From Desulfuromonas sp. (GTDB taxonomy: Bacteria > Desulfobacterota > Desulfuromonadia > Desulfuromonadales > Desulfuromonadaceae), in assembly GCA_034006225.1 (NCBI GenBank), contig JAVETC010000011.1, forward strand, positions 8,278 through 72,277: DNA of 64,000 bases, written 5' to 3'. The position numbers were made by a program, and so were the translations under genes. Shown one piece after another: positions 51,806-64,000 of the stretch. The first letter of the stretch is position 1. Every line of letters begins with the position of its first letter. The notes below the pieces were generated by a model. The model was given only the letters and a program-made list of their open reading frames with translations, searched no databases and was not told the origin of the DNA.

Positions 51806-52025
51806 TCCACAGCTAACTAACTAAAAACATAAGACTATTCTAAAGTACATTTATTGACAACCCTACTAAAGCATGCTAGTTTTCCAGCTCTGTTTATTGC
51901 ACCGATTTTACCTAGCACCATGTAGGAACTAAATACCTACACAATCTAGATCAACAGCGGTGCACTTTAGCAATTTCATTGCCGTTATAGCAATAGTTGC
52001 ATTTAATGCCCACAAGGGGGACACG

Positions 52026-53309
52026 ATGAAACACACTAAGTCCACAGCCTATTTTTCTCAATCCAAACAAGTTATTCCCGGCGGAGTCAATAGCCCCGTG
52101 CGTGCTTTTAAATCAGTCGGTTGCGATCCGCTATTTATTGAGCGTGCCGCTGGTTCCAAAATATATGATGCCGACAACCACAGCTACATTGACTATGTTG
52201 GCTCATGGGGACCGATGATTCTCGGCCACTGTCATCCTAAGGTTGTTGAAGCGATCCAACAGGCGGCCAATAGCGGTGCCTCCTTCGGCGCACCAACCTA
52301 TAAAGAGATTGAGTTAGCCAATATGGTATGTGAGGCATACCCGAATATAGAAAAAGTACGCATGGTCTCTTCTGGCACAGAGGCGACTATGAGTGCCATT
52401 CGTTTGGCTCGTGGCTGCACCAGTCGTGACAAAATTCTCAAATTTGATGGATGCTATCACGGCCACGCCGATTCCCTCTTGGTAAAAGCTGGCAGTGGCG
52501 CGGCAACATTTGGCGTTCCCACCTCGCCAGGCATTCCAGCCGATGTTGCTAAATACACCCTGACAGCCACCTACAATGATCTGGATGAGGTTAAAGCTAT
52601 CGTAGCCGCAAACAAAGGAGAGATTGCCTGCATTATTCTGGAAGCAGTTGCTGGCAATATGGGTTGCGTACCCCCGCTGCCCGGCTTTCTTCAAGGGGTG
52701 CGTGAGCTATGTACAGCCGAAGGGATCATCATGATCGTTGACGAGGTCATGTCCGGCTTCCGCGTCGCCTACGGCGGGGCACAAGAGCGCTTCGACGTCC
52801 ACGGCGACATCGTCTGTCTGGGCAAAATTATTGGCGGCGGGCTGCCAGTCGGAGCATTTGGCGGCAAAAAAGAGTTAATGGATCAACTCTCTCCTGAAGG
52901 TAAAATCTATCAAGCCGGAACTCTGTCGGGCAACCCCTTGGCCATGAGCGCGGGAATTGCCACCCTGAAGCTGTTGCAAGAAGAGGGTTTCTACCAGCAG
53001 GTTGAGGAGAAAAGTGCCTATCTTGAAGCGGGACTTCGTCAAGCAGCTACCGCAGCCGGGGTGACTACCTGCTTGCAACGTGTCGGCGGCATGTTCTGCA
53101 CCTATTTCTGCGCTGGCCCAGTTAACAACTTCAACGATGCCCTCGGCAGCGACACCGAAGCTTTCAGCCGCTACTTCCGCTCCATGTTGGACTCTGGCAT
53201 CAACCTAGCACCATCACAATTTGAGGCTGGTTTTATGAGCATCGCCCACTCCCGCGATGATTTAGATCAGACAATTGCAGCAGCAGCACAGGCCTTTAGT
53301 GCAGTTTAA
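52026..53309 (+). CDS. hemL: Glutamate-1-semialdehyde 2,1-aminomutase
   Basis: Start set to MKHTKS, which follows AAGGGGG. Blocks [19 protein letters not shown] and [15 protein letters not shown]. Confidence 0.95.
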
Positions 53310-53317
53310 TTTAAGCA

Positions 53318-53358
53318 CCTCTCAGCCATAGAGAAGCCAAAAAAATATGGCTGAGAGG
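53318..53358 (+). terminator. Hairpin after hemL
   Basis: 13-bp stem cctctcagccata/tatggctgagagg. Confidence 0.5.
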
Positions 53359-53455
53359 CCTTCGCGCTACAGGGTCAAAGCTGACTTAATTATTTACAAT
53401 ATCCCAATAAATAGTTATGGTTAGAGTGCTGCGTTCGCCCCCACACAGGACTGCC

Positions 53456-55045
53456 ATGGAAACCATACACGACCAACGGATAGAAGATGCGTTAATCGGC
53501 CTCGCCAAACTCCTGAAGAACGTCAGTTACTATCCGGACGGGCATCCATCTCTTAACAACGCTATAGCGCAATCTATAAAATTGTTTGGCACGGTGAACT
53601 TAGCCAGCCAAGAGCCTTTAGTGTTAATCGTTTCGCGGCAGGGATTTTTTCTCGATCACGGCCAGCTAGAAAGCAAAAATCCGCTCATCAACACCCTGGC
53701 TCAACGCCTTTTTTTCCACAAAATCAAGAGATTAACGCTATTTCCTGATTTACTGGATCGCCACCTGCTAGCTTTTGCACGCCTTATCTGTGAAGAACCG
53801 GTAGCCATCATAGATAAAGGTGGTATTGCCGAGCTACTGGATAGGCAACTTGTCTCCACTATCTCCATCAACATGCTCAATCTGAGCGCAGCCGCCAGCC
53901 GCAAGAATAAACTCGAACAGCAACAGGGCAGTACTTCCGTTGATGGCGCGGGCAAGCCCGACCAAAGCTCCAGCAACAAAGCATCTAACGATATCTTTCA
54001 GAGCAACGCTCATGGAGTATCCATACACGAACTGCTGCAGCAACTCGACGGCATTCTGCACCAGCCAACGAAAGAGAAAGAACCTCTATTTCTGCGCACC
54101 GTGGGACAGCTAAGCAAAATTATGCGCCAGATGATCAACGATGCCAGTCGCATGCAAACGCTGCCCGCGCTGCAACAGCTAGACTGTTGGATACAGAACT
54201 CATCGCTAAATCAACGTTTTGTTAACGTTTTAAAACAGGCGGTACGCTCTCTAGGCAGCCAAGAACTTGTAGATCTACTCATTGACAACGCCAGCGACAC
54301 GCCACAGCAAAATCTGGCACGTCACCTAATTGCCGAATTGAACAGTAATACTGGCGTAATACTTATCGATCGCTTGAGCAACGAGACCAATACGCGCTTA
54401 CGCAAATTCATCAGCCAACTCTTGGTGAGCAGAGGCGAGCAGGTGTTTGCGCCACTAATTGCCAGCCTCAACAATGAGCGCTGGTTTGTCGTGCGTAATG
54501 CCGTGGCAATTTTGGGAGAAAGTCGCGACGAACGCCTTGTCCCCACCTTTGCGAGCCAACTCAACCACTCTGACGCTCGCGTAGTTAATGAGGCTATCCG
54601 TGCTTTAGCGCGGATTAAAACTACCAGTTCCAGCCAAGCACTTATCGACCACCTCAGCTCCGGCAACAGCGATTTTCCACAACAGATAATCTTGGCATTA
54701 GGCGCACTGGCTGACCCGATTGCGGTACCGTACTTGACATCAATCGCCACCAGATCTGACCCGTTCCTGCGCAATAAAACCCTAACCAAGGTGGCCATAG
54801 CAGCCTTAGGTGAAATTGGTGCGCCCGAGGCGGTTCCAACCCTGATCAAACTGTTGCAGCGCATCAAGCTGTTAAAACGTGCTGAATACGCCGAGATTCG
54901 CTGCCAAGCTGCGCTCACCCTAGGCAGTTTTAATGACAGCGCCAGCCTAAAAGCGCTACAGCGGGTCAGCAAATCATCCCAGCGCAACTTGGCCGCAGCA
55001 GCACGACAAGCACTACGTCAGCGAGGCGAGGCTGACAATGGCTAA
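53456..55045 (+). CDS. HEAT-repeat (PBS-lyase-type) protein with an N-terminal domain homologous to that of the downstream HD-GYP protein
   Basis: Start set to METIHDQ. C-terminal HEAT-like units (RWFVVRNAVAILGE, ARVVNEAIRALARI, ...). The N-terminus carries a YPDGHP motif. Confidence 0.65.
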   Translation: METIHDQRIEDALIGLAKLLKNVSYYPDGHPSLNNAIAQSIKLFGTVNLASQEPLVLIVSRQGFFLDHGQLESKNPLINTLAQRLFFHKIKRLTLFPDLLDRHLLAFARLICEEPVAIIDKGGIAELLDRQLVSTISINMLNLSAAASRKNKLEQQQGSTSVDGAGKPDQSSSNKASNDIFQSNAHGVSIHELLQQLDGILHQPTKEKEPLFLRTVGQLSKIMRQMINDASRMQTLPALQQLDCWIQNSSLNQRFVNVLKQAVRSLGSQELVDLLIDNASDTPQQNLARHLIAELNSNTGVILIDRLSNETNTRLRKFISQLLVSRGEQVFAPLIASLNNERWFVVRNAVAILGESRDERLVPTFASQLNHSDARVVNEAIRALARIKTTSSSQALIDHLSSGNSDFPQQIILALGALADPIAVPYLTSIATRSDPFLRNKTLTKVAIAALGEIGAPEAVPTLIKLLQRIKLLKRAEYAEIRCQAALTLGSFNDSASLKALQRVSKSSQRNLAAAARQALRQRGEADNG

Positions 55046-56384
55046 TACCCTACACACCAACTTCCTTCATGCACTCAATGGTGTTCTCAATGGTTTAAAT
55101 CTATACCCAAGCCAGCACCCCGCCAATGCCACTTTGCAAAAAGCACTGTGGACAGCTCTGCAGCAGTTAGCCAAACACGAAAAGCTAACAACGATTGGCG
55201 TCGTGGAGCAGGCACTTTTCTTTAACAATCAGCTCTACCCAGAAAATCACTCAGTAGCAGCCACCATGGCGCACAAGTTATCCCATTATAATATTGCCGG
55301 GATAGAGATAAGCGCCGAGACAACAGAGAGAGAGCTAAATACTTTCATTGATCTGTTCAGTCAGGGTAGGTTGAACGGGGACAATTTTGACCAACTACTG
55401 CAGCAGCACAATATCTACCACATTCGTCACATAGATCGCATTGATGATAACAACTACGCCAGTCAGGCGCGCGCCACCTACGCCCAAGCACTCAACACTA
55501 TAGAGGTTATTGGCACCAGTGTAGAGAACGACGAGAAACCATCATCAGAACAGCTCATACCCACAGTAGAAAAAATGGTGCGCCAAACAGTGAAAAGCCC
55601 GTATGCGCTGTTAGCATTAAGCATGATCAAAGATTACGATAACTACACCTACACCCATTCGGTGAATGTACCGGTTATCGCACTGGCCATAGGACGTGTC
55701 TGTAAATTGAGCAGCGACGATCTTAACATCCTCGGCGTTGGAACCCTGTTACACGATCTAGGTAAGCTTAAAATTGACCCAGGCCTGATAAAAAAACCGG
55801 GAAGACTTACACCATCTGAATATCATCAAATCAAGTTGCATCCAGAGTTCGGTGCCAGAATAGCGGAACAGATGGATGATATCGACCCGCGCATCAAGGA
55901 GATTATCCTCGGGCACCACCAGCAGTATGATCATACCGGCTATCCGGACAATCTCAGCAAATTTATCAGTCCCGATCTGGTAGATATCGCTACAGTTGCC
56001 GACACCTATGATGCTATCACCTCGCTACGCGTCTACCATCGGTCGAAAACTCCCCGTGAGGCGATTACAATTATGCACGGACTGTCCGGCACACAGTTTA
56101 ATCCGCACTATGTGCAAGCACTGGAGCAAACCCTGGGATCTTTCCCAGTTGGCAGCCTAGTTAGATTGTTCAATAATGAGATTGGCCTAGTAGTAAACAT
56201 GGATGCCAACAACACTGATAACAGCACCGTTAGAATTGTAAAAGACAGTGGCGGAAACACCATATCCACCCCCTACGATATGGAACTCAGTAACAGCGAT
56301 CAGGAGATTGTCGGTGAAGTAGATCCATTGGTGCATAATGTGGATGTCAGCAAGACGCTGGGAGCACAACCGCAGGAGAGTTGA
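55038..56384 (+). CDS. HD-GYP domain c-di-GMP phosphodiesterase-type protein
   Basis: 448 aa. Motifs HSVNV, LLHDLGK and HHQQYDHTGYP (HD...GYP). Overlaps the upstream gene by 8 nt. Confidence 0.85.
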   Translation: MANTLHTNFLHALNGVLNGLNLYPSQHPANATLQKALWTALQQLAKHEKLTTIGVVEQALFFNNQLYPENHSVAATMAHKLSHYNIAGIEISAETTERELNTFIDLFSQGRLNGDNFDQLLQQHNIYHIRHIDRIDDNNYASQARATYAQALNTIEVIGTSVENDEKPSSEQLIPTVEKMVRQTVKSPYALLALSMIKDYDNYTYTHSVNVPVIALAIGRVCKLSSDDLNILGVGTLLHDLGKLKIDPGLIKKPGRLTPSEYHQIKLHPEFGARIAEQMDDIDPRIKEIILGHHQQYDHTGYPDNLSKFISPDLVDIATVADTYDAITSLRVYHRSKTPREAITIMHGLSGTQFNPHYVQALEQTLGSFPVGSLVRLFNNEIGLVVNMDANNTDNSTVRIVKDSGGNTISTPYDMELSNSDQEIVGEVDPLVHNVDVSKTLGAQPQES

Positions 56385-56409
56385 AGCTTAGTTAAATAGC
56401 ACTCAACGA

Positions 56410-56979
56410 CTAACTAATCTGTAGAGCACCCAAAGCAGTAACTGCGGCCACGCGCACATCAACACGCTGATCCTGAGCATATTCACTTAAAATAGGCGCA
56501 CTCTTGGCGAATCCCAACCGACCCAAAGCGGTTAATGCGGCAGCACTCAGCTCTGTGTTGGCTTGACGGCACACTGTCTCCAAGTAGGGCAACAGACGCT
56601 CATCCTGATAACCGCCCAAAGCCTCAGCGGCATAAACCGCTACCGCCACCACCGGATCCTTCAAACTCTGAACTAGAGCAGCCAACGCCTGCGGCAGACG
56701 CTTCTCCCCTAGCAACTGTACCGCCACTGCACGCACATCAGCATCAGCATCACGCACCAGCTCAAGCAACAGAGCACAGCCAGCATTATCATTTACTGAG
56801 CGCAAAGCATACACAGCCGCGATGCGTTCCTGCCGTGTGCCGACCGCCAACTTTTGTTGCAACGCCACCAGACTATAGCGGCTATCTAACACCTCCAGCG
56901 CCTGAGCTGCAGCACGGCGCACAGCTATCTCTTCATCCTGCAAAGCACGCAACAGTACCTCACGACGGTCTATAGGCAT
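56410..56979 (-). CDS. HEAT-repeat protein
   Basis: 189 aa of tandem units of the type VRRAAAQALEVL, RIAAVYALRSV, VRAVAVQLLG, VRVAAVTALGAL. It lies 29 nt downstream of pyk. Confidence 0.7.
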   Translation of the reverse strand: MPIDRREVLLRALQDEEIAVRRAAAQALEVLDSRYSLVALQQKLAVGTRQERIAAVYALRSVNDNAGCALLLELVRDADADVRAVAVQLLGEKRLPQALAALVQSLKDPVVAVAVYAAEALGGYQDERLLPYLETVCRQANTELSAAALTALGRLGFAKSAPILSEYAQDQRVDVRVAAVTALGALQIS

Positions 56980-57008
56980 ATTTTCACTCCACGCAGCATC
57001 TTTGGTTC

Positions 57009-58421
57009 TTAACTGCCTATCTCAATAACTTTGAGCAAGTTGGTTGAGCCGGGATGCCACAATGGCGTTCCCGCAGTAACAATAATACGCTCCCCAGCCA
57101 CGGCAAGACCAAGCTTCTTCACCTCTTCTGCAGAGCCCAGCAACATCTCATCGGTATCGTTATATGCCTCGGTCAAGACTGGCACTACTCCCCACAACAG
57201 ATTCATCTGACGGTAAATCAAGGCACTAGGAGTCAATGCCACAATAGGGCAACGGGGACGAAACCTGGATACACAGCTGGCGGTAAAACCTGACTGCGTG
57301 TACGCAAGAATAGCCGCTGCCTGCAGATCGTTGGCCAGCCAGCCCGCTGCCCGCCCCACAGCCCAAGCTACAGTCGGTGGAGCGGGATCTTCCTGATTCA
57401 AGTCCAGAGCGTTGCCCACAAATGGCTCAGTTGCTACAGCTATTCTATGCAAAATTTGCGTCGCCTGCACGGGATATTTACCCGCAGCAGTTTCATCGGA
57501 CAGCATCACCGCGTCAGTTCCATCATAGATAGCATTGGCTACATCGGTAGCCTCAGCTCTGGTTGGGCGCGGACTGACCACCATGCTCGACAACATCTGA
57601 GTGGCCGTAATCACGCTGCGCCCAGCTAGACGCGCCTTCTTGATCAACTGTTTCTGCAACACAGGCACCCGCTCCAGCGGCATTTCGACCCCGAGATCTC
57701 CACGGGCAACCATGATACCGTTTACTAGAGCGAGAATCTCATCGATATTGGCCACAGCCTGAGGTTTTTCGATCTTTGCTATCAAATGTGGTCGATACGC
57801 AGCGCTGTCGAGTAGAGCACGGATCTGCTCCAAATCGGCAGCACTGCGCACAAAGGATAGCGCAACTATATCAACTCCCTGCTCGAGACCAAAGAGTAGA
57901 TCCTCCCTATCTTTTTCAGTGAACGCGGAGATACGCAGATTGCTCGTCGGTAGATTGACCCCTTTGCGCGAATAGGCCACGCCACCAGTTATCACCTCAC
58001 AATGCACCAGTTCACCGACAATGGAATCAACGCGCAACTCCATCAAACCATCAGCCAACATAATGGGATCGTCGATTTTAACGTCATGATGCAGACTGGG
58101 GCAATCAACCAGCAGAGCGTCAAGAGCCACATCGGCAACTGCGCACAGGGCAACCATCTCGCCCGGCACTAGACGCACACCCTCCTCGGGCAGAACCCCC
58201 AAACGAATCTTGGGCCCACACAGATCCTGTAAAATAGCAACCGGCTTACCCGCTTGCTGGGATAGATAGCGGATCATCTTTATCAATTTGCCGTGTGATG
58301 CATGGTCGCCATGAGAAAAGTTTAGGCGGGCTACATCCATCCCCGCGCCTATCATCGCGCTCAAAATCTCTTCTGATGCCGAAGCGGGGCCGACCGTACA
58401 GACTATCTTTGTTCGCCGCAT
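57009..58421 (-). CDS. pyk: Pyruvate kinase
   Basis: 470 aa. Blocks MRRTKIVCTVGPAS, NFSHG, MVARGDLGVE and ATQMLSSM. Confidence 0.95.
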   Translation of the reverse strand: MRRTKIVCTVGPASASEEILSAMIGAGMDVARLNFSHGDHASHGKLIKMIRYLSQQAGKPVAILQDLCGPKIRLGVLPEEGVRLVPGEMVALCAVADVALDALLVDCPSLHHDVKIDDPIMLADGLMELRVDSIVGELVHCEVITGGVAYSRKGVNLPTSNLRISAFTEKDREDLLFGLEQGVDIVALSFVRSAADLEQIRALLDSAAYRPHLIAKIEKPQAVANIDEILALVNGIMVARGDLGVEMPLERVPVLQKQLIKKARLAGRSVITATQMLSSMVVSPRPTRAEATDVANAIYDGTDAVMLSDETAAGKYPVQATQILHRIAVATEPFVGNALDLNQEDPAPPTVAWAVGRAAGWLANDLQAAAILAYTQSGFTASCVSRFRPRCPIVALTPSALIYRQMNLLWGVVPVLTEAYNDTDEMLLGSAEEVKKLGLAVAGERIIVTAGTPLWHPGSTNLLKVIEIGS

Positions 58422-58467
58422 GGAGCATATCTCCTCAAGCTAGACAATCACTGCGCCTGAACTTCAA

Positions 58468-59187
58468 CTACTTTACGTGACAGCCACTACAGCTAACTGG
58501 GCCGTTATTCTGTTTATGACAATCTTTACACAATTTGTGGGCGCGAGTCTTACCCAGCTCGAACGCAGCTGGAACACCTTCACCATGACATACCGCACAG
58601 CCATATTTTTCACCATGCTGCGCATGCTTCAAGGTTACATCGCCTTTAGTATTTTTAATCACCAAGATTTCAACTGCAGTATTATCAGTTGCAGCAACTT
58701 CAGTCGCAGCAGCAACCACATTTGAGAGTAAAGCTTGGCCGGCAGGGACAGCTTCTGATGTTGTAGCAGAGGCACTATCGGTAACAGGAGCAGCACTATC
58801 TACGGCTTTATCTACCAAAGTGTTTAACAGATTGCCACCATCTTGCTGCACCGCACTAGCTTGCTGCTGCACTGTCGCCACCGCCTGAGTAACCTTTTCC
58901 TGCGCCACAACAGCTCCAGCTGCTAAATCTTTTGCTGCTGTCTCTTTAACCTCTTGCACTGCCTGTTCAGCTGCCACTCCAGCCTGCTGTAGTTTTTCCT
59001 TACCAGCATCAACAACTGCATCAACCTGCTCAACCGCGTCGTTGACTACAGCCTTAGTCTGCTCCACCACAGATGTTGTGGCTGCAGGCTCAACCTGAAC
59101 AGCCTTTTCTACAACCGGTTCACTCTTCTGTTCACAACCACCAATTAGCACAGCTAACGCCACTACAACCAGAACAATTGATCTCAT
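58468..59187 (-). CDS. Lipoprotein with a long Ala/Val/Gln/Glu-rich linker and a C-terminal triheme cytochrome c7 (PpcA-like) domain
   Basis: Start set to MRSIVLVV, which follows GGAGG. Lipobox LIGGC. The last 70 aa, VTLKHAQHGEKYGCAVCH...CKDCH...CSGCHVK, carry three CxxCH motifs spaced as in c7. Confidence 0.75.
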   Translation of the reverse strand: MRSIVLVVVALAVLIGGCEQKSEPVVEKAVQVEPAATTSVVEQTKAVVNDAVEQVDAVVDAGKEKLQQAGVAAEQAVQEVKETAAKDLAAGAVVAQEKVTQAVATVQQQASAVQQDGGNLLNTLVDKAVDSAAPVTDSASATTSEAVPAGQALLSNVVAAATEVAATDNTAVEILVIKNTKGDVTLKHAQHGEKYGCAVCHGEGVPAAFELGKTRAHKLCKDCHKQNNGPVSCSGCHVK

Positions 59188-59406
59188 AACCCCTCCGTAA
59201 AACACAGTTATTAAAACTACCTCAATAAAATCTACCTAGATTTTATTCCTAAACAGAGATTAATCTATTTCTTCCCCTCTGTCTAGCGGATGGGTATATT
59301 CCGCAGCAATACAGCAATAAAATAGTTAGTGTAGTCAGCCCTTGCAAAACCGGCTGTGTTCCGGCATCTTAGAGCAACATCAGCCGACATAAATAAGGAG
59401 CATTAA

Positions 59407-59679
59407 ATGGATCTCTTTCAACAACTCAATAAAGCGATAGATGAAGAGTATGAGCATGGTGAATTGCCAGAAAATTTGCTCACACCGTTGCGGCAAGTCA
59501 GTCAAAATCCCGAGCGCTTTGCCGCCCACTTAGCTACCGTTGAAACCTTGTTAAAACAGATTAAGGCGTTTGAACCCTATTGCGATTGTGGCTGCTTTGC
59601 TGAAGGTTTTGATGCCAAAGCAGTGAATAGAACGCTTGAACAGCTGGGAATAATTGGTAAACATAGCGCAACAAAATAG
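59407..59679 (+). CDS. Hypothetical 90-aa protein with a CDCGC motif
   Basis: An AAGGAG RBS lies 7 nt upstream of the ATG. I recognise no family. Confidence 0.45.
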   Translation: MDLFQQLNKAIDEEYEHGELPENLLTPLRQVSQNPERFAAHLATVETLLKQIKAFEPYCDCGCFAEGFDAKAVNRTLEQLGIIGKHSATK

Positions 59680-59693
59680 GTCAGGAGAGCAGT

Positions 59694-60836
59694 ATGGAGC
59701 ACATACAGGCATGGCTCAACAGTATTGATTTTTTCAGCACCGACATGCAGCGCTACATTTTAGCGACAGGTATCCTGTTTGTTTTCTTCATCTTTAAACG
59801 CCTATTCAGCAGTATATTAACACGTTTTATTTTACCACTGACCAATCGCACGGCAAACAATTTCGACGACCTGCTCTTAGCCAACGTACGCCGCCCTCTG
59901 GAGACCTTAGTGCTTATCGGCGGGCTATTTATAGCTTTGCAGGTGCTTCAACTGCCGACCGCGCCTACCAATTTTCAACAGGCAGGCCATGCTCTTATAA
60001 AAACCATGATCACATTCAATATTGCTTGGATTCTCTTCAACGCAGTATCCATATTGGAGCGCAGCATCGCGAGCTGGGCCCAGCATACCGGCGCCCCACT
60101 CGATGAGCATCTACTGCCATTTATCCGTAAAATTGTCCGAGCTTTCATAATTATTTTAGCTGTTGTGCTGGTAATTCAAAACTTAGGGTACTCGATTTCC
60201 GGCTTGCTGGCCTCCCTTGGCATTGGCGGTTTAGCTGTCGCTTTGGCCGCAAAAGAGACGCTTTCCAACGTATTCGGCTCTATTATGATTCTGCTCGACC
60301 GGCCGTTTCGGGTTGGCGATTGGATAAAAACCGACAACATCGAAGGAGTCGTGGAAGAGATTGGATTTCGCTCAACCCGCATCCGCACCTTCGCCAAGAC
60401 ATTAATAACCGTACCCAACAATATAATCGCCACAACTTCACTCAATAATTTCAGCTATATGCCTAAACGACGCATAAAAATGACCGTTGGCGTCACCTAT
60501 GCCAGCAGCCCTGAACAGATGCGCGCGGCGGTCAGCAGCATACGCAGCATGCTGGAGCAGCATCCAGCCATCAATCAGGAGTTCATGCTGGTCAACTTTA
60601 CTGACTTTAGCCCGTCTAGCTTAGATATCCTTATCTACTGCTTCACTACCACTACTGACTGGGCCGCGTATTTGCAGGCGCGCGAAGATGTCTGTTTAAA
60701 AATTATGGATATCATCGCAGAACTGGGCATGGAGATGGCCTTTCCCAGCCATAGCGTCTACCTGCACCAGCAAGACGACATACAGCAATCAGCCGCGCAA
60801 CCATTTACCAGCAGCAACGAAAGAATACAGCCATGA
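59694..60836 (+). CDS. Small-conductance mechanosensitive channel (MscS family)
   Basis: 380 aa. TM helices followed by the MscS beta-domain block LLDRPFRVGDWI...GVVEEIGFRSTRIRT. Confidence 0.85.
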   Translation: MEHIQAWLNSIDFFSTDMQRYILATGILFVFFIFKRLFSSILTRFILPLTNRTANNFDDLLLANVRRPLETLVLIGGLFIALQVLQLPTAPTNFQQAGHALIKTMITFNIAWILFNAVSILERSIASWAQHTGAPLDEHLLPFIRKIVRAFIIILAVVLVIQNLGYSISGLLASLGIGGLAVALAAKETLSNVFGSIMILLDRPFRVGDWIKTDNIEGVVEEIGFRSTRIRTFAKTLITVPNNIIATTSLNNFSYMPKRRIKMTVGVTYASSPEQMRAAVSSIRSMLEQHPAINQEFMLVNFTDFSPSSLDILIYCFTTTTDWAAYLQAREDVCLKIMDIIAELGMEMAFPSHSVYLHQQDDIQQSAAQPFTSSNERIQP

Positions 60837-61270
60837 AACACGAGCAACTCAAGGGTCAACTCATAAAAATTTTAGTGGATTTTTTTGGCAACGACTACCG
60901 CCGCATCGCTCACGCCATCGAGGTGTTAAAATATGCCGAGATAACCATGCAGCAGAGCCAGCCAGTCGATGAGGAGATAGTGATTGCCAGCGCTATTTTA
61001 CACGATATCGGCATTAAACAATCTGAAGCAGAGCTAGGCTACAACAACGGCAAAACGCAAGAGCTATATGGCCCTCCTATCGCCAGCGACATACTGCAAA
61101 GCATAGAATTTCCGGCCGATAAAATTACTCAGGTAACGCAAATAATCGGCAACCACCATTCACCCTCACGCTACAACTATCCTGAACTGGCTATTTTGAA
61201 AACTGCTGATCGCATCGTTAATCAACTCGACAAACAACAACCTGATGAGCGCCACAGTGTTGAAGATTAA
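60833..61270 (+). CDS. HD-domain metal-dependent phosphohydrolase
   Basis: 145 aa. H...HD (AILHDIG) and a later NHH. Overlaps the MscS gene by 4 nt. Confidence 0.7.
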   Translation: MKHEQLKGQLIKILVDFFGNDYRRIAHAIEVLKYAEITMQQSQPVDEEIVIASAILHDIGIKQSEAELGYNNGKTQELYGPPIASDILQSIEFPADKITQVTQIIGNHHSPSRYNYPELAILKTADRIVNQLDKQQPDERHSVED

Positions 61271-61411: not shown

Positions 61412-61483
61412 TTAATATGCTATACTTGGTGTCTGAACATTAGATTGTACTTTTAGAATAATTTTTACTTTCGGAGATTTGCC

Positions 61484-64000
61484 ATGAAGAGAACTTTTCT
61501 CGCCCTGATTGTAGTCGCGCTTATTATTCCCACTGCATTAGCAGGTGCCGCATCCAAGGTAAAAGGTGCAGTTCTCAATGTGCCCAACACCATAGACAAG
61601 GATGCCAACATCAGTATTGGCAAAGATTCCACTGCGACCCAGAGCTCTATCGCCTTAAAAAATCTGGACATGTCTGGAGCAGTGATCAATACCAGCGCCG
61701 ACAAACAGAGTGTAAATATTGCCGTTGGCAACAAGGCGGATGCAACACAAAATTCGGTCAAGCTAGGCGGTAAACTCCGCGGCGCCGTTGTCAATACCAA
61801 CCTAGTTGGCACAAATGTAAACTTGGCGGCAGGCAACAACGTAACGGCCAACCAAGCGTCGGTAAATATAGCCAACAGCGATATAAGTGGTGCAGTCGCC
61901 AACACTGCCATGGGGAAAAATGCAGTTAATATTGCGGCAGGAAATCAGGTTAAAGCCGGACAAGCTGCAGTCATGATGGACAATAGCAGCGTGCGCGGTG
62001 CAGTAGTCAATACCACAGCCGCACAAAATATGGTGAATCTAGGCGCAGGCAATAAGGTTGAGGCCAGCCAAGCAGCCACCACAATTTCCGGCAGCTCGAT
62101 TAAGGGTGCTGCAGTCAACACTGCCGCCGCACAAAATTTCTTAAATCTTGCTGCGGGTAACGACACCACCGCACGCCAAGCTGCAACCAACATTAAGGGA
62201 TCGCAGGTTAGTGGCGCGGTGGTCAACACTGTAGTTGGACAAAACTTAGTCAACCTTGGAGCAGGCAATCAGAGTACTGCCAATCAGGGCGCAGTTAATA
62301 TAGAGCATTCTAGTATCAAAGGTGCAGTAGTTAACACCGCAGGCGGGCAAAATTTCGTTAACCTGGCCGCAGGCAACAAGACCGCAGCCAATCAAGCATC
62401 CGCCACCATTAAAGGCTCCAGAGTAAAGGGTGCAGTGGTAAACACCGCCCTAGATCAAAACTTTGTCAACCTCGCAGCGGGCAATAAAGCGACAGCCAAT
62501 CAGGCAGCTACCAATTTAGAAGATTCCACAGTCTCTGGTGCAGTAGTTAACACCGCTATTGGCCAGAGTTTTGTCAACCTTGCGGCGGGTAATCAGGTTG
62601 AAGCCAATCAAGCATCTACTAACGCTAAAGATAGTAACATCAAAGGCGCGGCGGTAAACACCATTGGCGCGGCGGGTGCAGTCAACCTCGCAGCAGGCAA
62701 TAGAGCAACAGCCAATCAGGCGAGCACTAACTTAGAGGGCTCCACTCTAAAGGGTGCCGCAGTTAACACCATCATCGGTGGCACCGTCAACCTGGCGGCA
62801 GGGAATCAGGCAGAGGCTAATCAAGCAGCGCTGAACAGCAAGGGATCAAACCTAAAAGGTACAGCTGTCAATACTGTGGCCGGAGCTGCAGTCAATCTAG
62901 CTGCTGGCAACCGCGCCGTAGCTAATCAGTCAGCGACTAATCTAGAAGAGAGTACAGTGGCAGGCAATGCCGTCAACACGGTAGCCGGAGCAGCGGTAAA
63001 CTTGGCCGCTGGTAACCGCGTTAGCGCCAATCAAGCAGCTACAAAGATTGAGGGCAGTAACGTCAAGGGCAACATGGTCAATACCCTTGGTGGGGCGGGT
63101 GTCAACCTCGCAGCCGGTAACCGCGCTGAAGCAAATCAGGCTTCTACCGCCATCAAGGGCAGTCAGGTTACAGGCAACATGGTTAACACCGTTGGCGGTG
63201 CGGGTGTCAACCTCGCTGCAGGGAATCGCGCAGAGGCAAACCAAGCTGCCACAGAAATTGCCGACAGCCAAGTTAAAGGCAATATGATCAATACGGTAGC
63301 TGGGGCGGGCGTCAACTTAGCGGCAGGTAACCGCGTTAGCGCCAATCAAGCAGCTACAAAGATTGAGAGCAGTAACGTCAAGGGCAATATTGTCAACACC
63401 CTTGGCGGAGCGGGCGTTAACCTCGCTGCCGGAAATCGCGCAGAGGCAAACCAAGCTGCCACAAAGATTGAGGGCAGTAACGTCAATGGCAAAATTGTCA
63501 ATACCGTTGGTGGTGCAGGCGTCAACTTAGCCGCAGGTAATCGCGCAGAAGCTAATCAGGCAGCAACGAGCATCAAAAACTCCAACTACAGCGGCAACGT
63601 TACCAATACCGTTGCTGGCGCAGCAGTCAACCTTGCTGCAGGCAACAGAGTAGAAGCCAATCAAGCCACAACTAACATAGAGAACAGCAGGGTACAGGGC
63701 GACATTAAAAACAAAGTCTATGGCGCAGGCGTCAACTTAGCCGCAGGCAACAGAGCTACGGCCAACATGGCTGCGACCGACATTCAAGACAGTACCGTCA
63801 GAGGAAATATCAGCAATACTGTCGCCGGCGCAGCGGTCAACTTAGCCGTTGGCAATAGGTCTGAGGCCAATATGGCCGCCACCAAAATCAGCAACAGTGA
63901 TGTAAGTGGCAACGTCACCACGCGCGTCTCCGGTGGGGCCCTCAATCTGGCCGCCGGAAATAAGGCTAAAGCCAATATGGGAACAGTAATCGTCGACGAC
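61484..64000 (+). CDS. Secreted tandem-repeat protein (at least 22 units of 35-36 aa, Asn/Gln-ladder, curlin-like GN-x-A-x-A-NQ core); the 3-prime end runs off the window
   Basis: Absent from the ORF track because there is no stop. My translation gives 839 codons with no stop. Signal peptide MKRTFLALIVVALIIPTALA|GAAS, followed by repeats such as GNMVNTLGGAGVNLAAGNRAEANQASTAIKGSQVT. Confidence 0.8.
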   Translation, partial: MKRTFLALIVVALIIPTALAGAASKVKGAVLNVPNTIDKDANISIGKDSTATQSSIALKNLDMSGAVINTSADKQSVNIAVGNKADATQNSVKLGGKLRGAVVNTNLVGTNVNLAAGNNVTANQASVNIANSDISGAVANTAMGKNAVNIAAGNQVKAGQAAVMMDNSSVRGAVVNTTAAQNMVNLGAGNKVEASQAATTISGSSIKGAAVNTAAAQNFLNLAAGNDTTARQAATNIKGSQVSGAVVNTVVGQNLVNLGAGNQSTANQGAVNIEHSSIKGAVVNTAGGQNFVNLAAGNKTAANQASATIKGSRVKGAVVNTALDQNFVNLAAGNKATANQAATNLEDSTVSGAVVNTAIGQSFVNLAAGNQVEANQASTNAKDSNIKGAAVNTIGAAGAVNLAAGNRATANQASTNLEGSTLKGAAVNTIIGGTVNLAAGNQAEANQAALNSKGSNLKGTAVNTVAGAAVNLAAGNRAVANQSATNLEESTVAGNAVNTVAGAAVNLAAGNRVSANQAATKIEGSNVKGNMVNTLGGAGVNLAAGNRAEANQASTAIKGSQVTGNMVNTVGGAGVNLAAGNRAEANQAATEIADSQVKGNMINTVAGAGVNLAAGNRVSANQAATKIESSNVKGNIVNTLGGAGVNLAAGNRAEANQAATKIEGSNVNGKIVNTVGGAGVNLAAGNRAEANQAATSIKNSNYSGNVTNTVAGAAVNLAAGNRVEANQATTNIENSRVQGDIKNKVYGAGVNLAAGNRATANMAATDIQDSTVRGNISNTVAGAAVNLAVGNRSEANMAATKISNSDVSGNVTTRVSGGALNLAAGNKAKANMGTVIVDD
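61565..64000 (+). repeat. In-frame tandem repeat array, unit 108 bp (5-prime half) then 105 bp (3-prime half)
   Basis: 22 complete units plus 1 partial. The 3-prime units share identical 30-62-nt blocks at offsets of 210 and 315 bp. Confidence 0.85.

What the first reader, a model, noticed from the sequence alone, without database searches (positions are those of the whole stretch)
61484..64000. Secreted protein made of at least 22 tandem 35-36-aa Asn/Gln-ladder repeats with a curlin-like core: candidate subunit of an undescribed beta-solenoid / functional-amyloid surface fibre
Seen: the ORF starts at ATG 61484 and stays open for 839 codons to the window edge. It is missing from the supplied track for that reason. 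The N-terminus MKRTFLALIVVALIIPTALA|GAAS is a typical Sec signal peptide. From residue 28 onward there are 22 complete units and 1 partial unit. The consensus is G-x-x-V-N-T-x-x-G-x-G-V-N-L-A-A-G-N-R-x-x-A-N-Q-A-x-T-x-I-x-x-S-x-V-x. Units 1-11 are mostly 36 aa and units 12-22 are 35 aa. The composition is almost only G, A, N, V, S, T and Q, with no Cys, no Trp, one His and no Pro inside the repeats. Established: E. coli CsgA repeats follow S-x5-Q-x-G-x-G-N-x-A-x3-Q, and stacked Asn/Gln ladders with small residues are hallmarks of beta-solenoids and functional amyloids. The G-N-x-A-x-A-N-Q core here matches the second half of that motif. Inference: each unit probably forms one three-strand coil (S-x-V-x-G-x-x-V-N-T / G-x-G-V-N-L-A-A-G-N / x-A-x-A-N-Q-A-x-T-x-I). 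The unit length (35 aa versus about 22) and the unit number are unlike canonical curli. No csgB/E/F/G-like, autotransporter or T1SS gene lies upstream. It may therefore represent a distinct fibre, adhesin or matrix family whose assembly genes would lie downstream of the window.
Basis: partly seen in the sequence, partly recalled or inferred. Interest (0 to 1): 0.75.

Follow-up and report, generated by a model that had tools for sequence, protein, structure and literature searches.

The report
New repeat protein, CsgG-linked fibre family
This gene encodes a real, exported 922-residue protein made of about 25 stacked 35-36-residue repeats; it belongs to an undescribed family that in related sulfate- and metal-reducing bacteria is almost always encoded next to a relative of the curli secretion pore CsgG, so it probably builds a new kind of curli-like surface fibre.

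Summary
An ORF opens at ATG 61484 and runs off the window. An identical contig shows the whole gene: 922 aa, made of a Sec signal peptide plus about 25 tandem 35-36-aa units and nothing else. It is under strong purifying selection (dN/dS about 0.06 against a 82%-identical orthologue). AlphaFold2 predicts an all-beta, regularly repeating rod. No Pfam, NCBIfam or PDB sequence matches it, including Curlin_rpt, CsgA and FapC. The family is rare and confined to Desulfobacterota-type MAGs. Members range from 93-aa proteins (signal peptide plus 2 units) to 1863 aa, and some are fused to S8 proteases or FecR domains. They are not there; orthologous loci have housekeeping genes in that position. In relatives, however, repeat genes sit in an operon with a 450-490-aa lipoprotein. 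Its AlphaFold2 model matches CsgG (Foldseek probability 1.00, E 1.7e-9). The operon also holds a FlgP/LPP20-like protein and two small proteins. Of 29 lipoprotein-anchored metagenome loci of at least 12 kb, 28 carry a repeat gene on the same strand within 3 kb. The window protein shares the N- and C-terminal caps of the long subunit of those operons. Best reading: an unlinked long subunit of an undescribed CsgG-dependent beta-solenoid fibre system. Fibre formation is untested.

The parts
61472..61475 (+). Shine-Dalgarno GGAG, ending 8 nt before the ATG. It lies in a 213-nt intergenic gap after the upstream HD-domain gene.
   Evidence: Sequence read. The promoter-like hit at 61434-61462 is no better than the shuffles.
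61484..64000 (+). Repeat-protein gene, cut by the window edge after codon 839 of 922.
61484..61543 (+). Sec-type signal peptide MKRTFLALIVVALIIPTALA, with predicted cleavage after ALA.
   Evidence: Read from the sequence. It is conserved in the L003 orthologue. No predictor was run.
61559..61663 (+). Unit 0, the N-terminal cap unit VKGAVLNVPNTIDKDANISIGKDSTATQSSIALKN. The long subunits and the S8-protease fusions share it; the short family members do not.
61664..62632 (+). Units 1-9 (one of 35 aa, eight of 36 aa), consensus SxVxGAVVNTAxGQNFVNLAAGNKxxANQAxTNIxG.
62633..63997 (+). Units 10-22, thirteen units of 35 aa, consensus GSxVKGNxVNTVxGAGVNLAAGNRAEANQAATxIE. This is the best-predicted part of the model (pLDDT 70-90).
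62973..63666 (+). Higher-order 315-nt (3-unit) tandem duplication inside the 35-aa array, 76-81% matches. It points to recent expansion in 3-unit blocks.

Best explanation
The gene encodes the long subunit (about 25 units, 922 aa) of an undescribed curli-like surface-fibre system found in Desulfobacterota and Desulfuromonadota. Proposed mechanism, step by step: (1) The Sec system exports the protein to the periplasm (inferred from the signal peptide). (2) The unfolded chain crosses the outer membrane through an oligomeric CsgG-type lipoprotein pore. The operon link in relatives and the CsgG-like fold of that lipoprotein are shown. Pore function is inferred, and so is the presence of the operon elsewhere in this genome. 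(3) Outside the cell, each 35-36-aa unit folds into a set of short beta-strands. Units stack in register into a beta-solenoid rod held by ladders of the near-invariant N9, N18 and N28 and by tight turns at G5 and G22. The all-beta periodic prediction and the conservation are shown; the exact cross-section is not. (4) The rod ends in conserved N- and C-terminal cap units. It probably joins shorter paralogues (2-, 5-, 8- and 11-unit proteins) and a roughly 115-aa accessory protein that carries one degenerate unit, which may act as nucleator or anchor (inferred). (5) The product would be a matrix or adhesion fibre. S8 proteases and FecR-domain proteins carrying the same repeats could dock onto it (inferred). 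In this organism, and in the syntenic L003 and L007 genomes, the gene is not next to the secretion operon.
For: The gene is real, complete and under selection. AF2 on the single sequence gives an all-beta model with strictly periodic short strands: pTM 0.64, mean pLDDT 68.6, and 70-90 in the 35-aa array. The family profile from 495 units has N9 at 95%, N18 at 97%, G22 at 98%, A27 at 96%, G5 at 85% and A20 at 84%. Nothing is known at sequence level. The exhaustive HMMER search found only 130 proteins at E<=1e-3 among 1.84 billion representatives. A conserved operon was found starting from the repeat side in L004, L014, L015 and L008. It was found again starting from the lipoprotein side in 4 of 4 sampled genomes. 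In 29 metagenome loci of at least 12 kb, 28 have a repeat gene, always on the same strand and within 3 kb, with a median gap of 594 nt. The lipoprotein model (70-sequence MSA, pLDDT 74.8) gives CsgG as all of its top 25 Foldseek hits: E 1.7e-9 to 1e-4, probability 1.00, about 250 aligned columns, which is the whole of CsgG including the membrane-inserted form 4uv3. The next gene matches FlgP-like lipoproteins (PDB 9hmf E 3.7e-4; Pfam LPP20 E 1e-4). The long subunits inside operons (L018, L021, L004, L014) share this protein's N-cap (KGAV[LI]N[VI]P...QSS[IV]) and C-cap (SPFSFGQNINV.AG...SNKNSVIMK-COOH). BRH_c16a and DeMMO2_17 each carry both an operon copy and an unlinked long copy (L015 with L005, and L004 with L006). 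An unlinked copy is therefore normal for this family. Family members of 93-97 aa consist of a signal peptide plus exactly two units. That is too little to be a stable solenoid alone, which argues for assembly between molecules.
Against: No CsgG-like, LPP20-like or small accessory gene is in the window, on the rest of its 72.8-kb contig, or in the syntenic L003 and L007 loci. I could not show that this lineage has the operon at all. The CsgG assignment rests on a predicted structure. Sequence tests are sub-threshold: Pfam CsgG E 0.049 and 13.4 bits against a cut-off of 20.8, and hhalign 2%. The repeat model is a single-sequence prediction of moderate confidence. Its Foldseek search found no significant PDB match (best E 0.033, generic beta-helices). 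Polymerisation, amyloid properties and surface location are all untested.
Confidence: 0.6

Rival explanations
1. It is a self-contained monomeric beta-solenoid rod that acts as a surface adhesin or spacer. It is exported as above but does not polymerise. Its 25 units already form a finished rod, and the conserved end caps block end-to-end growth.
For: N- and C-terminal cap units differ from the internal units and are conserved among all long forms. Capping is how natural solenoids avoid edge aggregation (general knowledge). Unit number varies between orthologues from 922 to 1863 aa, as in length-tunable stalks.
Against: The same family includes 2-unit proteins that cannot be stable rods alone. 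Operons usually carry two or three paralogues of different length, as expected for co-assembly.
Confidence: 0.2
2. It is a periplasmic or envelope scaffold. On this reading the CsgG-like and FlgP-like proteins form a peptidoglycan-anchored ring under the outer membrane, as FlgT and FlgP do in flagellar disks. The repeat proteins would then be periplasmic structural elements and would not be secreted.
For: The lipoprotein has a C-terminal helical domain that sources name peptidoglycan-binding or lysozyme-like. FlgT and the LPHT ring appear among the weaker Foldseek hits (E 9e-4 to 3e-3). The neighbouring gene matches FlgP-like lipoproteins.
Against: The CsgG hits are about 10^5-fold better than FlgT and span the whole CsgG chain. 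The best ones are membrane-inserted pore structures (6l7c, 6l7a, 4uv3), which rank above the pre-pore form 4uv2. The model has the long beta-hairpins (187-211, 223-242) expected for the barrel.
Confidence: 0.1
3. It is a divergent true homologue of curli CsgA or of Pseudomonas FapC, that is, a member of a known functional-amyloid family.
For: In the long forms, GN[KR]AxANQ fits one curlin half-motif N-$-Psi-$-Psi-$-Q (PMC10192328). VNLAAG resembles the FapC motif VNVAAGxGNQQ, and this is the one segment hhalign aligns. FapC layers also consist of five short strands (PMC12392863).
Against: Curlin_rpt gives no hit at E<=10. PDB searches with the protein and with a profile find neither CsgA nor FapC, although FapC is present in that library. 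hhalign gives 0.4% and 1.2%. The unit is 35-36 aa against 23 +/- 5 for curlin. The motif positions N23 and Q29 are not conserved in the family. The units are contiguous, with no FapC-type linkers and no CxxC.
Confidence: 0.05
4. It is the passenger of a type V system (autotransporter or two-partner) or a type I secreted repeat adhesin.
For: It is a large beta-helix-like repeat protein. The top, non-significant, Foldseek hits are EtpA, Ag43, SepA and pertactin-type helices.
Against: The full-length protein has no C-terminal barrel and no TPS domain. No TpsB or T1SS genes lie nearby. It has a cleavable Sec signal and no GGxGxD RTX repeats (read from the sequence).
Confidence: 0.02

Closest known systems
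Curli / type VIII secretion (E. coli CsgA, CsgB, CsgG, CsgE, CsgF)
   Same: Both have Sec-exported subunits rich in Asn, Gln, Gly and Ala, built from tandem repeats and predicted to stack into a beta-solenoid. In both, the subunit genes share an operon with a lipoprotein of CsgG fold. Both have several subunit paralogues and small accessory proteins. One accessory here gives a sub-threshold CsgF hit (E 0.098). Unit number varies widely in both (4-62 in curli, PMC10192328; 2 to about 50 here).
   Different: The unit is 35-36 aa with four to five short strands, against 23 +/- 5 aa with two strands. No sequence or profile similarity to Curlin_rpt or CsgA was found. The CsgG-like protein is 450-490 aa, carries an extra C-terminal peptidoglycan-binding-like domain and falls below Pfam's CsgG threshold. 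No CsgE or CsgC was recognised. A FlgP/LPP20-like protein is a core component. The window gene is not linked to the operon.
Fap functional amyloid of Pseudomonas (FapC/FapB with the FapF channel)
   Same: The layer size is similar (a roughly 35-50-aa imperfect repeat forms one layer of five short strands, with conserved Asn/Gln ladders; PMC12392863). There is a local motif resemblance, N-[VI]-A-A-G-x-G-N.
   Different: There is no significant homology. FapC has three repeats separated by linkers and a C-terminal CxxC; this protein has up to about 50 contiguous units and no Cys. The Fap system uses the FapF barrel and the FapD protease, which is my own knowledge and was not searched for here. 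The neighbour found here is a CsgG-type lipoprotein.
Caulobacter holdfast anchor HfaA/HfaB/HfaD (from my own knowledge; not tested here)
   Same: It is a non-curli system in which a CsgG-family lipoprotein (HfaB) exports amyloid-like anchor proteins. It shows that CsgG-type pores serve substrates other than curlin.
   Different: The Hfa substrates are short and are not 35-aa tandem arrays. No holdfast polysaccharide genes lie around these operons. No comparison was possible, because no Hfa sequence or structure was available in the tools.

Membership tests
Curli major subunit CsgA (Pfam Curlin_rpt PF07012) | Significant match to the Curlin_rpt profile | tested here: not met
   hmmscan against Pfam-A at E<=10 returned no family for the 839-aa window product. 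It returned nothing at E<=0.01 for the 992-aa orthologue. No Curlin hit appeared for ten other family members at E<=1.
Curli major subunit CsgA (Pfam Curlin_rpt PF07012) | Repeat of 23 +/- 5 aa holding two N-$-Psi-$-Psi-$-Q motifs joined by X-G-X-X arcs (PMC10192328) | tested here: not met
   Units are 35-36 aa. Only one segment (GNRAEANQ) fits a half-motif. In 495 family units its flanking N23 and Q29 are only 36% and 37% conserved.
Curli major subunit CsgA (Pfam Curlin_rpt PF07012) | Detectable sequence or profile similarity to E. coli CsgA | tested here: not met
   phmmer and profile searches of PDB sequences at E<=10 do not list CsgA.
Curli major subunit CsgA (Pfam Curlin_rpt PF07012) | Encoded with csgB, csgE, csgF and csgG | tested here: inconclusive
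   None of these is in the window, on its contig or in the syntenic loci. In relatives a structural CsgG homologue is operon-linked. CsgE was not recognised and CsgF is sub-threshold (E 0.098).
Fap amyloid subunit (FapC/FapB) | Sequence similarity to FapC repeats | tested here: not met
   FapC is in the PDB sequence library (9nqd, 9u4u). Neither the protein nor the profile finds it at E<=10. hhalign gives probability 1.2% over 16 columns.
Fap amyloid subunit (FapC/FapB) | Three imperfect repeats separated by linkers, and a C-terminal Cys motif | tested here: not met
   There are about 25 contiguous units without linkers, and no Cys in the mature protein.
Substrate of a CsgG-type (type VIII-like) secretion pore | Gene neighbourhood with a CsgG-fold lipoprotein | tested here: inconclusive
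   Not met for the window gene itself. Met for the family: 8 of 8 inspected genome loci that hold the lipoprotein, and 28 of 29 metagenome loci of at least 12 kb. Foldseek gives CsgG at probability 1.00.
Substrate of a CsgG-type (type VIII-like) secretion pore | Sec signal peptide and no secretion domain of its own | tested here: met
   The signal peptide is read from the sequence. The full 922 aa holds only repeat units and no Pfam domain.
Type V secretion passenger (autotransporter or TpsA) | C-terminal beta-barrel, or an N-terminal TPS domain with a TpsB partner | tested here: not met
   The complete C-terminus is a degenerate repeat ending in a conserved cap, with no barrel. There are no Pfam hits and no TpsB gene nearby.
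The new 35-36-aa unit family defined here (alignment A2) | Unit with near-invariant G5, N9, N18, A20, G22, A27 and N28, and a C-terminus ending right after a unit (...S[VI]x[IVLM][KE]-COOH) | tested here: met
hmmsearch with the A2 profile scores the window product at E 1.4e-221 with 12 two-unit domains.

The most novel reading that the evidence does not exclude
This would be a third class of dedicated bacterial functional-amyloid or beta-solenoid fibre machinery, after curli and Fap, restricted to Desulfobacterota-type anaerobes. It has a new 35-36-aa Asn-ladder subunit family of 2 to about 50 units. Export would run through a highly divergent, peptidoglycan-tethered CsgG-type pore working with a FlgP-like ring protein. 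The same repeats are fused to S8 proteases and FecR domains, which the fibre could then display as a modular scaffold.
Probability: 0.4. Interest if true: 0.85.

Novelty: new variant of a known kind. Interest (0 to 1): 0.72.

Why it matters
Only two dedicated secretion-and-assembly systems for bacterial functional amyloids are well characterised: curli with CsgG and Fap with FapF. Both come from aerobic or facultative Proteobacteria. This family would add a system from strictly anaerobic sulfate-, sulfur- and metal-reducing lineages that dominate sediments and the deep subsurface, where the proteins of the biofilm matrix are essentially unknown. It pairs a CsgG-type pore with a subunit that is not curlin. 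That would show the pore is a general export route for solenoid-forming repeats. It would also give curli research a natural, very distant comparison for substrate recognition, nucleation and capping. The extremely regular 35-aa units, the natural length series (2, 5, 8, 11, 25 and about 50 units) and the natural enzyme fusions are also attractive for engineered protein materials. All components currently carry no curated annotation, so a family model would name proteins at hundreds of loci: at least 693 lipoprotein homologues were found.

Tried and rejected
- **Curlin and Fap homology.** I tested it with Pfam at E<=10, with PDB phmmer and profile searches, and with hhalign against CsgA and a verified FapC sequence. 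All were negative. I rejected homology and kept only a local motif resemblance.
- **Foldseek of the whole 819-residue repeat model against PDB.** Nothing scored better than E 0.033, and the hits were generic beta-helices. This is uninformative, partly because a long rod scores poorly on TM-score.
- **hhalign of the lipoprotein alignment against E. coli CsgG.** It gave probability 2% and E 0.022, although it aligned the expected N-terminal region. This was inconclusive, so I used the second AF2 job on the lipoprotein, which settled the fold.
- **Mean-field DCA on 495 units and 300 unit pairs.** The aim was to decide whether a unit forms one layer or two. The i-to-i+36 couplings dominate, but they are confounded by concerted evolution of neighbouring units. 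No i-to-i+17/18 signal was seen. I do not use this as structural evidence.
- **hhalign of the roughly 115-aa accessory protein against the unit profile.** It aligns GDxNMNSVVMGAGSNVKGDII to a unit junction, but at probability 3.8%. This is a hint only.
- **Promoter and terminator scans.** Results were no better than the shuffles.
- **NCBIfam on the repeat protein and on all operon components.** Nothing was found.
- **Literature searches.** I searched functional amyloids in Desulfobulbaceae, CsgG-like systems, cable bacteria with CsgG, and non-curli T8SS. Nothing on this family turned up.
- **Ice-binding, RTX and electron-conduit roles.** I considered and dropped these. Source labels such as DeMMO, BRH and 4572 suggest subsurface or sediment samples rather than cold habitats, though the tools did not document the habitats. 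There are no GGxGxD repeats and no Cys. His and aromatic residues are very few.
- **Full-length protein look-up.** I bypassed this by looking up the upstream HD gene.
Full report
**1. The observation**

Translation from ATG 61484 stays open for 839 codons to the last base of the window. A GGAG Shine-Dalgarno ends 8 nt before the ATG, after a 213-nt intergenic gap. The N-terminus MKRTFLALIVVALIIPTALA|GAAS has the layout of a Sec signal peptide.

Anchoring on the N-[ILV]-[AG]-[AV]-G-[NS] core splits the rest into units:
- a cap-like unit 0 (residues 26-60);
- unit 1 (35 aa);
- units 2-9 (36 aa);
- units 10-22 (35 aa).

Tandem Repeats Finder finds the 105-nt period and a 315-nt, three-unit, higher-order period. 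The mature protein has no Cys or Trp, one His and two Pro.

**2. Completing the gene**

The ORF runs off the window, so I looked up the upstream HD-domain gene (60833-61270) in public assemblies. It lies on a 72.8-kb ENA contig that is base-for-base identical to the window over the 9 kb compared. There the gene is complete at 922 aa. After unit 22 come two or three degenerate units, and the protein ends ...GITVNDIDSPFSFGQNINVAAGSGTSNKNSVIMK*. It has no barrel, no sorting signal and no other domain.

The contig ends 247 nt after the stop codon. Its other end, upstream of the window, holds only housekeeping and signalling genes.

Against the syntenic orthologue in an uncultured Desulfuromonas MAG (L003) the protein is 82% identical with one clean two-unit indel. 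pS is 0.68, pN is 0.106 and dN/dS is about 0.06. It is therefore a real gene under strong purifying selection. The antisense ORFs listed in the region are by-products of the repeat.

**3. Comparison with known families**

- Pfam-A at E<=10 returns no family, so Curlin_rpt is not matched.
- NCBIfam returns only noise.
- phmmer against all PDB sequences returns designer repeat proteins at chance level.
- A two-unit profile (A1) against PDB returns nothing relevant.
- hhalign of the family profile gives 0.4% against CsgA and 1.2% against FapC. The only aligned stretch is NSSGNVGVNVAAGQGN against TAGGQNFVNLAAGNKT.

Two facts argue against homology. Canonical curlin repeats are 23 +/- 5 aa and hold two such motifs. 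And in 495 units collected across the family, the flanking N23 and Q29 are only 36% and 37% conserved, with Met at 29% of position 29. The truly conserved positions are G5, N9, N18, A20, G22, A27 and N28. The curlin-like core is therefore a local resemblance in the long proteins and is not a family signature.

**4. Predicted structure**

AlphaFold2 on the mature window product, without an alignment, gives an all-beta model with no helix. Mean pLDDT is 68.6 and pTM is 0.64, and pLDDT reaches 70-90 across the 35-aa array. DSSP shows a strictly periodic pattern of four to five short strands per unit: MVNTV / GVNL / GNRAEA / AATEIA / (SQV). The breaks fall at the conserved Gly and Asn positions.

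This fits a regular beta-solenoid with Asn ladders at the turns. The tool output does not show whether a unit forms one layer or two. A covariation analysis could not settle this either. Foldseek of the whole rod against PDB finds nothing significant (best E 0.033).

**5. The family**

A word-indexed search of 5.8 billion proteins found one relative, a 680-aa protein with seven units followed by an S8 subtilase. An exhaustive HMMER search of 1.84 billion representatives with the two-unit profile found 130 proteins at E<=1e-3 and 40 at E<=1e-10. A second profile search (A2) found 44, nearly all unnamed or called hypothetical.

Four architectures appear:
- proteins of 93-97 aa, made of a signal peptide plus exactly two units and ending ...ANMGSVxV[EK];
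- arrays of 200-400 aa;
- long arrays of 922-1863 aa;
- fusions, either seven units ahead of a prodomain and S8 protease, or a FecR domain followed by two or three units.

One scan of GTDB species genomes found relatives only in Desulfobacterota-type MAGs: Desulfuromonas, Desulfobulbaceae BRH_c16a, Desulfobacteraceae 4572_35.1, Desulfocicer and 'Deltaproteobacteria' DeMMO2_17.

**6. Genomic context**

Upstream of the window gene lie IclR, CoaE, an aminotransferase, HEAT and HD-GYP genes, pyruvate kinase, a c7-type cytochrome, MscS and an HD protein. L003 and L007 share this order. In both, the next downstream genes are an Orn/DAP decarboxylase, PLP enzymes, a nuclease and NUDIX.

An all-against-all comparison of the other loci revealed a conserved gene set beside repeat genes in L004, L014, L015 and L008. 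Its order is:
- one or more repeat genes;
- a roughly 115-aa secreted protein with an acidic N-half and a C-terminal ...NMNSVVMGAGSNVKGDIIIID;
- a 450-490-aa lipoprotein (lipobox, invariant DVVITGGITEFDR, C-terminal LSxxEW);
- a 243-260-aa LPP20-like protein;
- a 97-aa protein with one hydrophobic N-terminal segment.

**7. The lipoprotein has the CsgG fold**

Sequence tests are only suggestive. Pfam CsgG scores E 0.049 and 13.4 bits, below the 20.8-bit cut-off. The 97-124-aa protein scores E 0.098 against CsgF. hhalign against E. coli CsgG gives 2%.

The lipoprotein has at least 693 homologues, mostly from Desulfobulbaceae, Desulforhopalus and Desulfurivibrionaceae. Sources name some of them 'DUF4384' or 'peptidoglycan-binding'. 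An AlphaFold2 model built with a 70-sequence alignment has pLDDT 74.8, with 164 residues above 90. Its core is an alpha/beta domain with long beta-hairpins, followed by a helical C-terminal domain.

Foldseek against PDB returns CsgG for all of the top 25 hits: 6l7c, 6l7a, 4q79, 4uv3, 6si7, 7brm and 4uv2. E-values run from 1.7e-9 to 1e-4 and probability is 1.00. About 250 columns align, which is the whole CsgG chain. FlgT and HpaA follow only at E of about 1e-3. The neighbouring LPP20-like protein matches FlgP-type lipoproteins (9hmf E 3.7e-4). NCBIfam has no model for any component.

**8. Strength of the link**

Starting from the lipoprotein rather than the repeat, four further genomes all carry repeat genes next to it:
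- L018 has genes of 1069 and 311 aa.
- L021 has genes of 1031 and 311 aa.
- L019 has a gene of 201 aa.
- L020 has a gene of 393 aa plus a repeat-S8 protease with its ECF sigma and anti-sigma pair.

A metagenome scan anchored on the lipoprotein gave 80 loci, of which 57 contain a repeat ORF. Among the 29 loci with at least 12 kb of sequence, 28 do. In all 28 the nearest repeat gene is on the same strand and within 3 kb, with a median gap of 594 nt. That gap is the size of the small accessory gene.

**9. Placing the window protein**

The long proteins inside operons (L018, L021, L004, L014) and the unlinked long proteins (L005, L006, L007, L003) share two features with the window protein:
- the N-terminal cap unit (KGAV[LI]N[VI]P...[AT][TH]QSS[IV]);
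- the C-terminal cap (SPFSFGQNINV.AG...SNKNSVIMK-COOH).

The window protein is therefore the counterpart of the operon's long subunit. Two genomes carry both an operon copy and an unlinked long copy: BRH_c16a (L015 and L005) and DeMMO2_17 (L004 and L006). An unlinked copy is thus normal for the family. I could not check whether the window organism has the operon elsewhere.

**10. Mechanism and verdict**

What is shown:
- a real, Sec-targeted, pure-repeat protein;
- an all-beta periodic prediction;
- a new family, and a tight operon link of that family to a CsgG-fold lipoprotein.

What is inferred:
- export of the unfolded chain through that pore;
- folding outside the cell into an Asn-ladder solenoid;
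- co-assembly with shorter paralogues, with the one-unit accessory protein acting as nucleator or anchor;
- a matrix or adhesion role, with protease and FecR fusions docking on the same scaffold.

The system works like curli. It fails every sequence-level membership test for curlin and for Fap, so I file it as a new variant of the CsgG-dependent fibre kind. Literature searches found no description of it. The main weaknesses are that the operon is absent from the window's own contig and that nothing here has been tested experimentally.

Noticed in passing
window 62973-63666: The 35-aa array has a three-unit (315-nt) higher-order repeat at 76-81% identity. The orthologue in L003 differs by exactly two units. 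The array seems to expand and contract in whole-unit blocks.
   Followed up: partly
L002:1914-3956 and L020:3202-5040 (with L020:5130-6327): Secreted S8 subtilases carry seven family units ahead of their prodomain. They sit beside an ECF sigma factor and a roughly 213-aa putative anti-sigma protein. In L020 this trio lies directly next to the repeat and CsgG-like operon.
   Followed up: partly
proteins P0025, P0036, P0043, P0058, P0076 (no window coordinates): Proteins of 290-360 aa have a signal peptide, a FecR domain (Pfam E 1e-13 to 2e-8) and two or three family units at the extreme C-terminus. The repeat may act as a portable docking module.
   Followed up: partly
L015:8784-10226 and alignments A3/A5: The CsgG-like lipoprotein has an invariant C-terminal ...LSxxEW after a low-complexity Ala/Pro/Gln tail, and a helical domain that sources label peptidoglycan-binding or lysozyme-like. 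Neither feature exists in E. coli CsgG.
   Followed up: no
L015:8392-8730, L018:16085-16417, L021:15492-15854: The roughly 115-aa accessory protein has an invariant acidic motif DDLDDGI...DD.I..YD.LGK..QNIKFI, followed by a single degenerate unit-like segment. Its role is unknown. hhalign to the unit is not significant (3.8%).
   Followed up: partly
L007:10187-12650: In the Desulfobacteraceae 4572_35.1 MAG the orthologue is split into 543-aa and 241-aa ORFs. The first ends in non-repeat sequence. This is probably a frameshift or an assembly collapse within the repeats.
   Followed up: no
window 61465-61911, 61945-62268 and 62942-63271, minus strand: Long antisense ORFs overlap the repeat gene and find BLAST matches in the other loci. 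They mirror the conserved repeat and are not independent genes.
   Followed up: partly
window 51960-61270: The block aminotransferase / HEAT-repeat protein / HD-GYP-type HD_5 protein / HEAT (minus strand) / pyruvate kinase (minus) / c7-like cytochrome (minus) / 90-aa ORF / MscS / HD protein keeps its order in the window and L003, and in L007 except for MscS and the cytochrome. In all three the repeat gene sits at its end.
   Followed up: partly
L009:8001-8288 and L009:16107-16288: A widespread 95-aa two-unit member (listed for 59 contigs) is not next to the divergent lipoprotein operon. It lies beside GGDEF and HD-GYP response regulators and an OEP gene. A canonical Pfam-CsgG lipoprotein gene lies about 7.8 kb away.
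   Followed up: no
L015:11476-12186: A DUF2807 protein ('putative auto-transporter adhesin head GIN domain', E 8e-22) follows the operon in BRH_c16a only.
   Followed up: no
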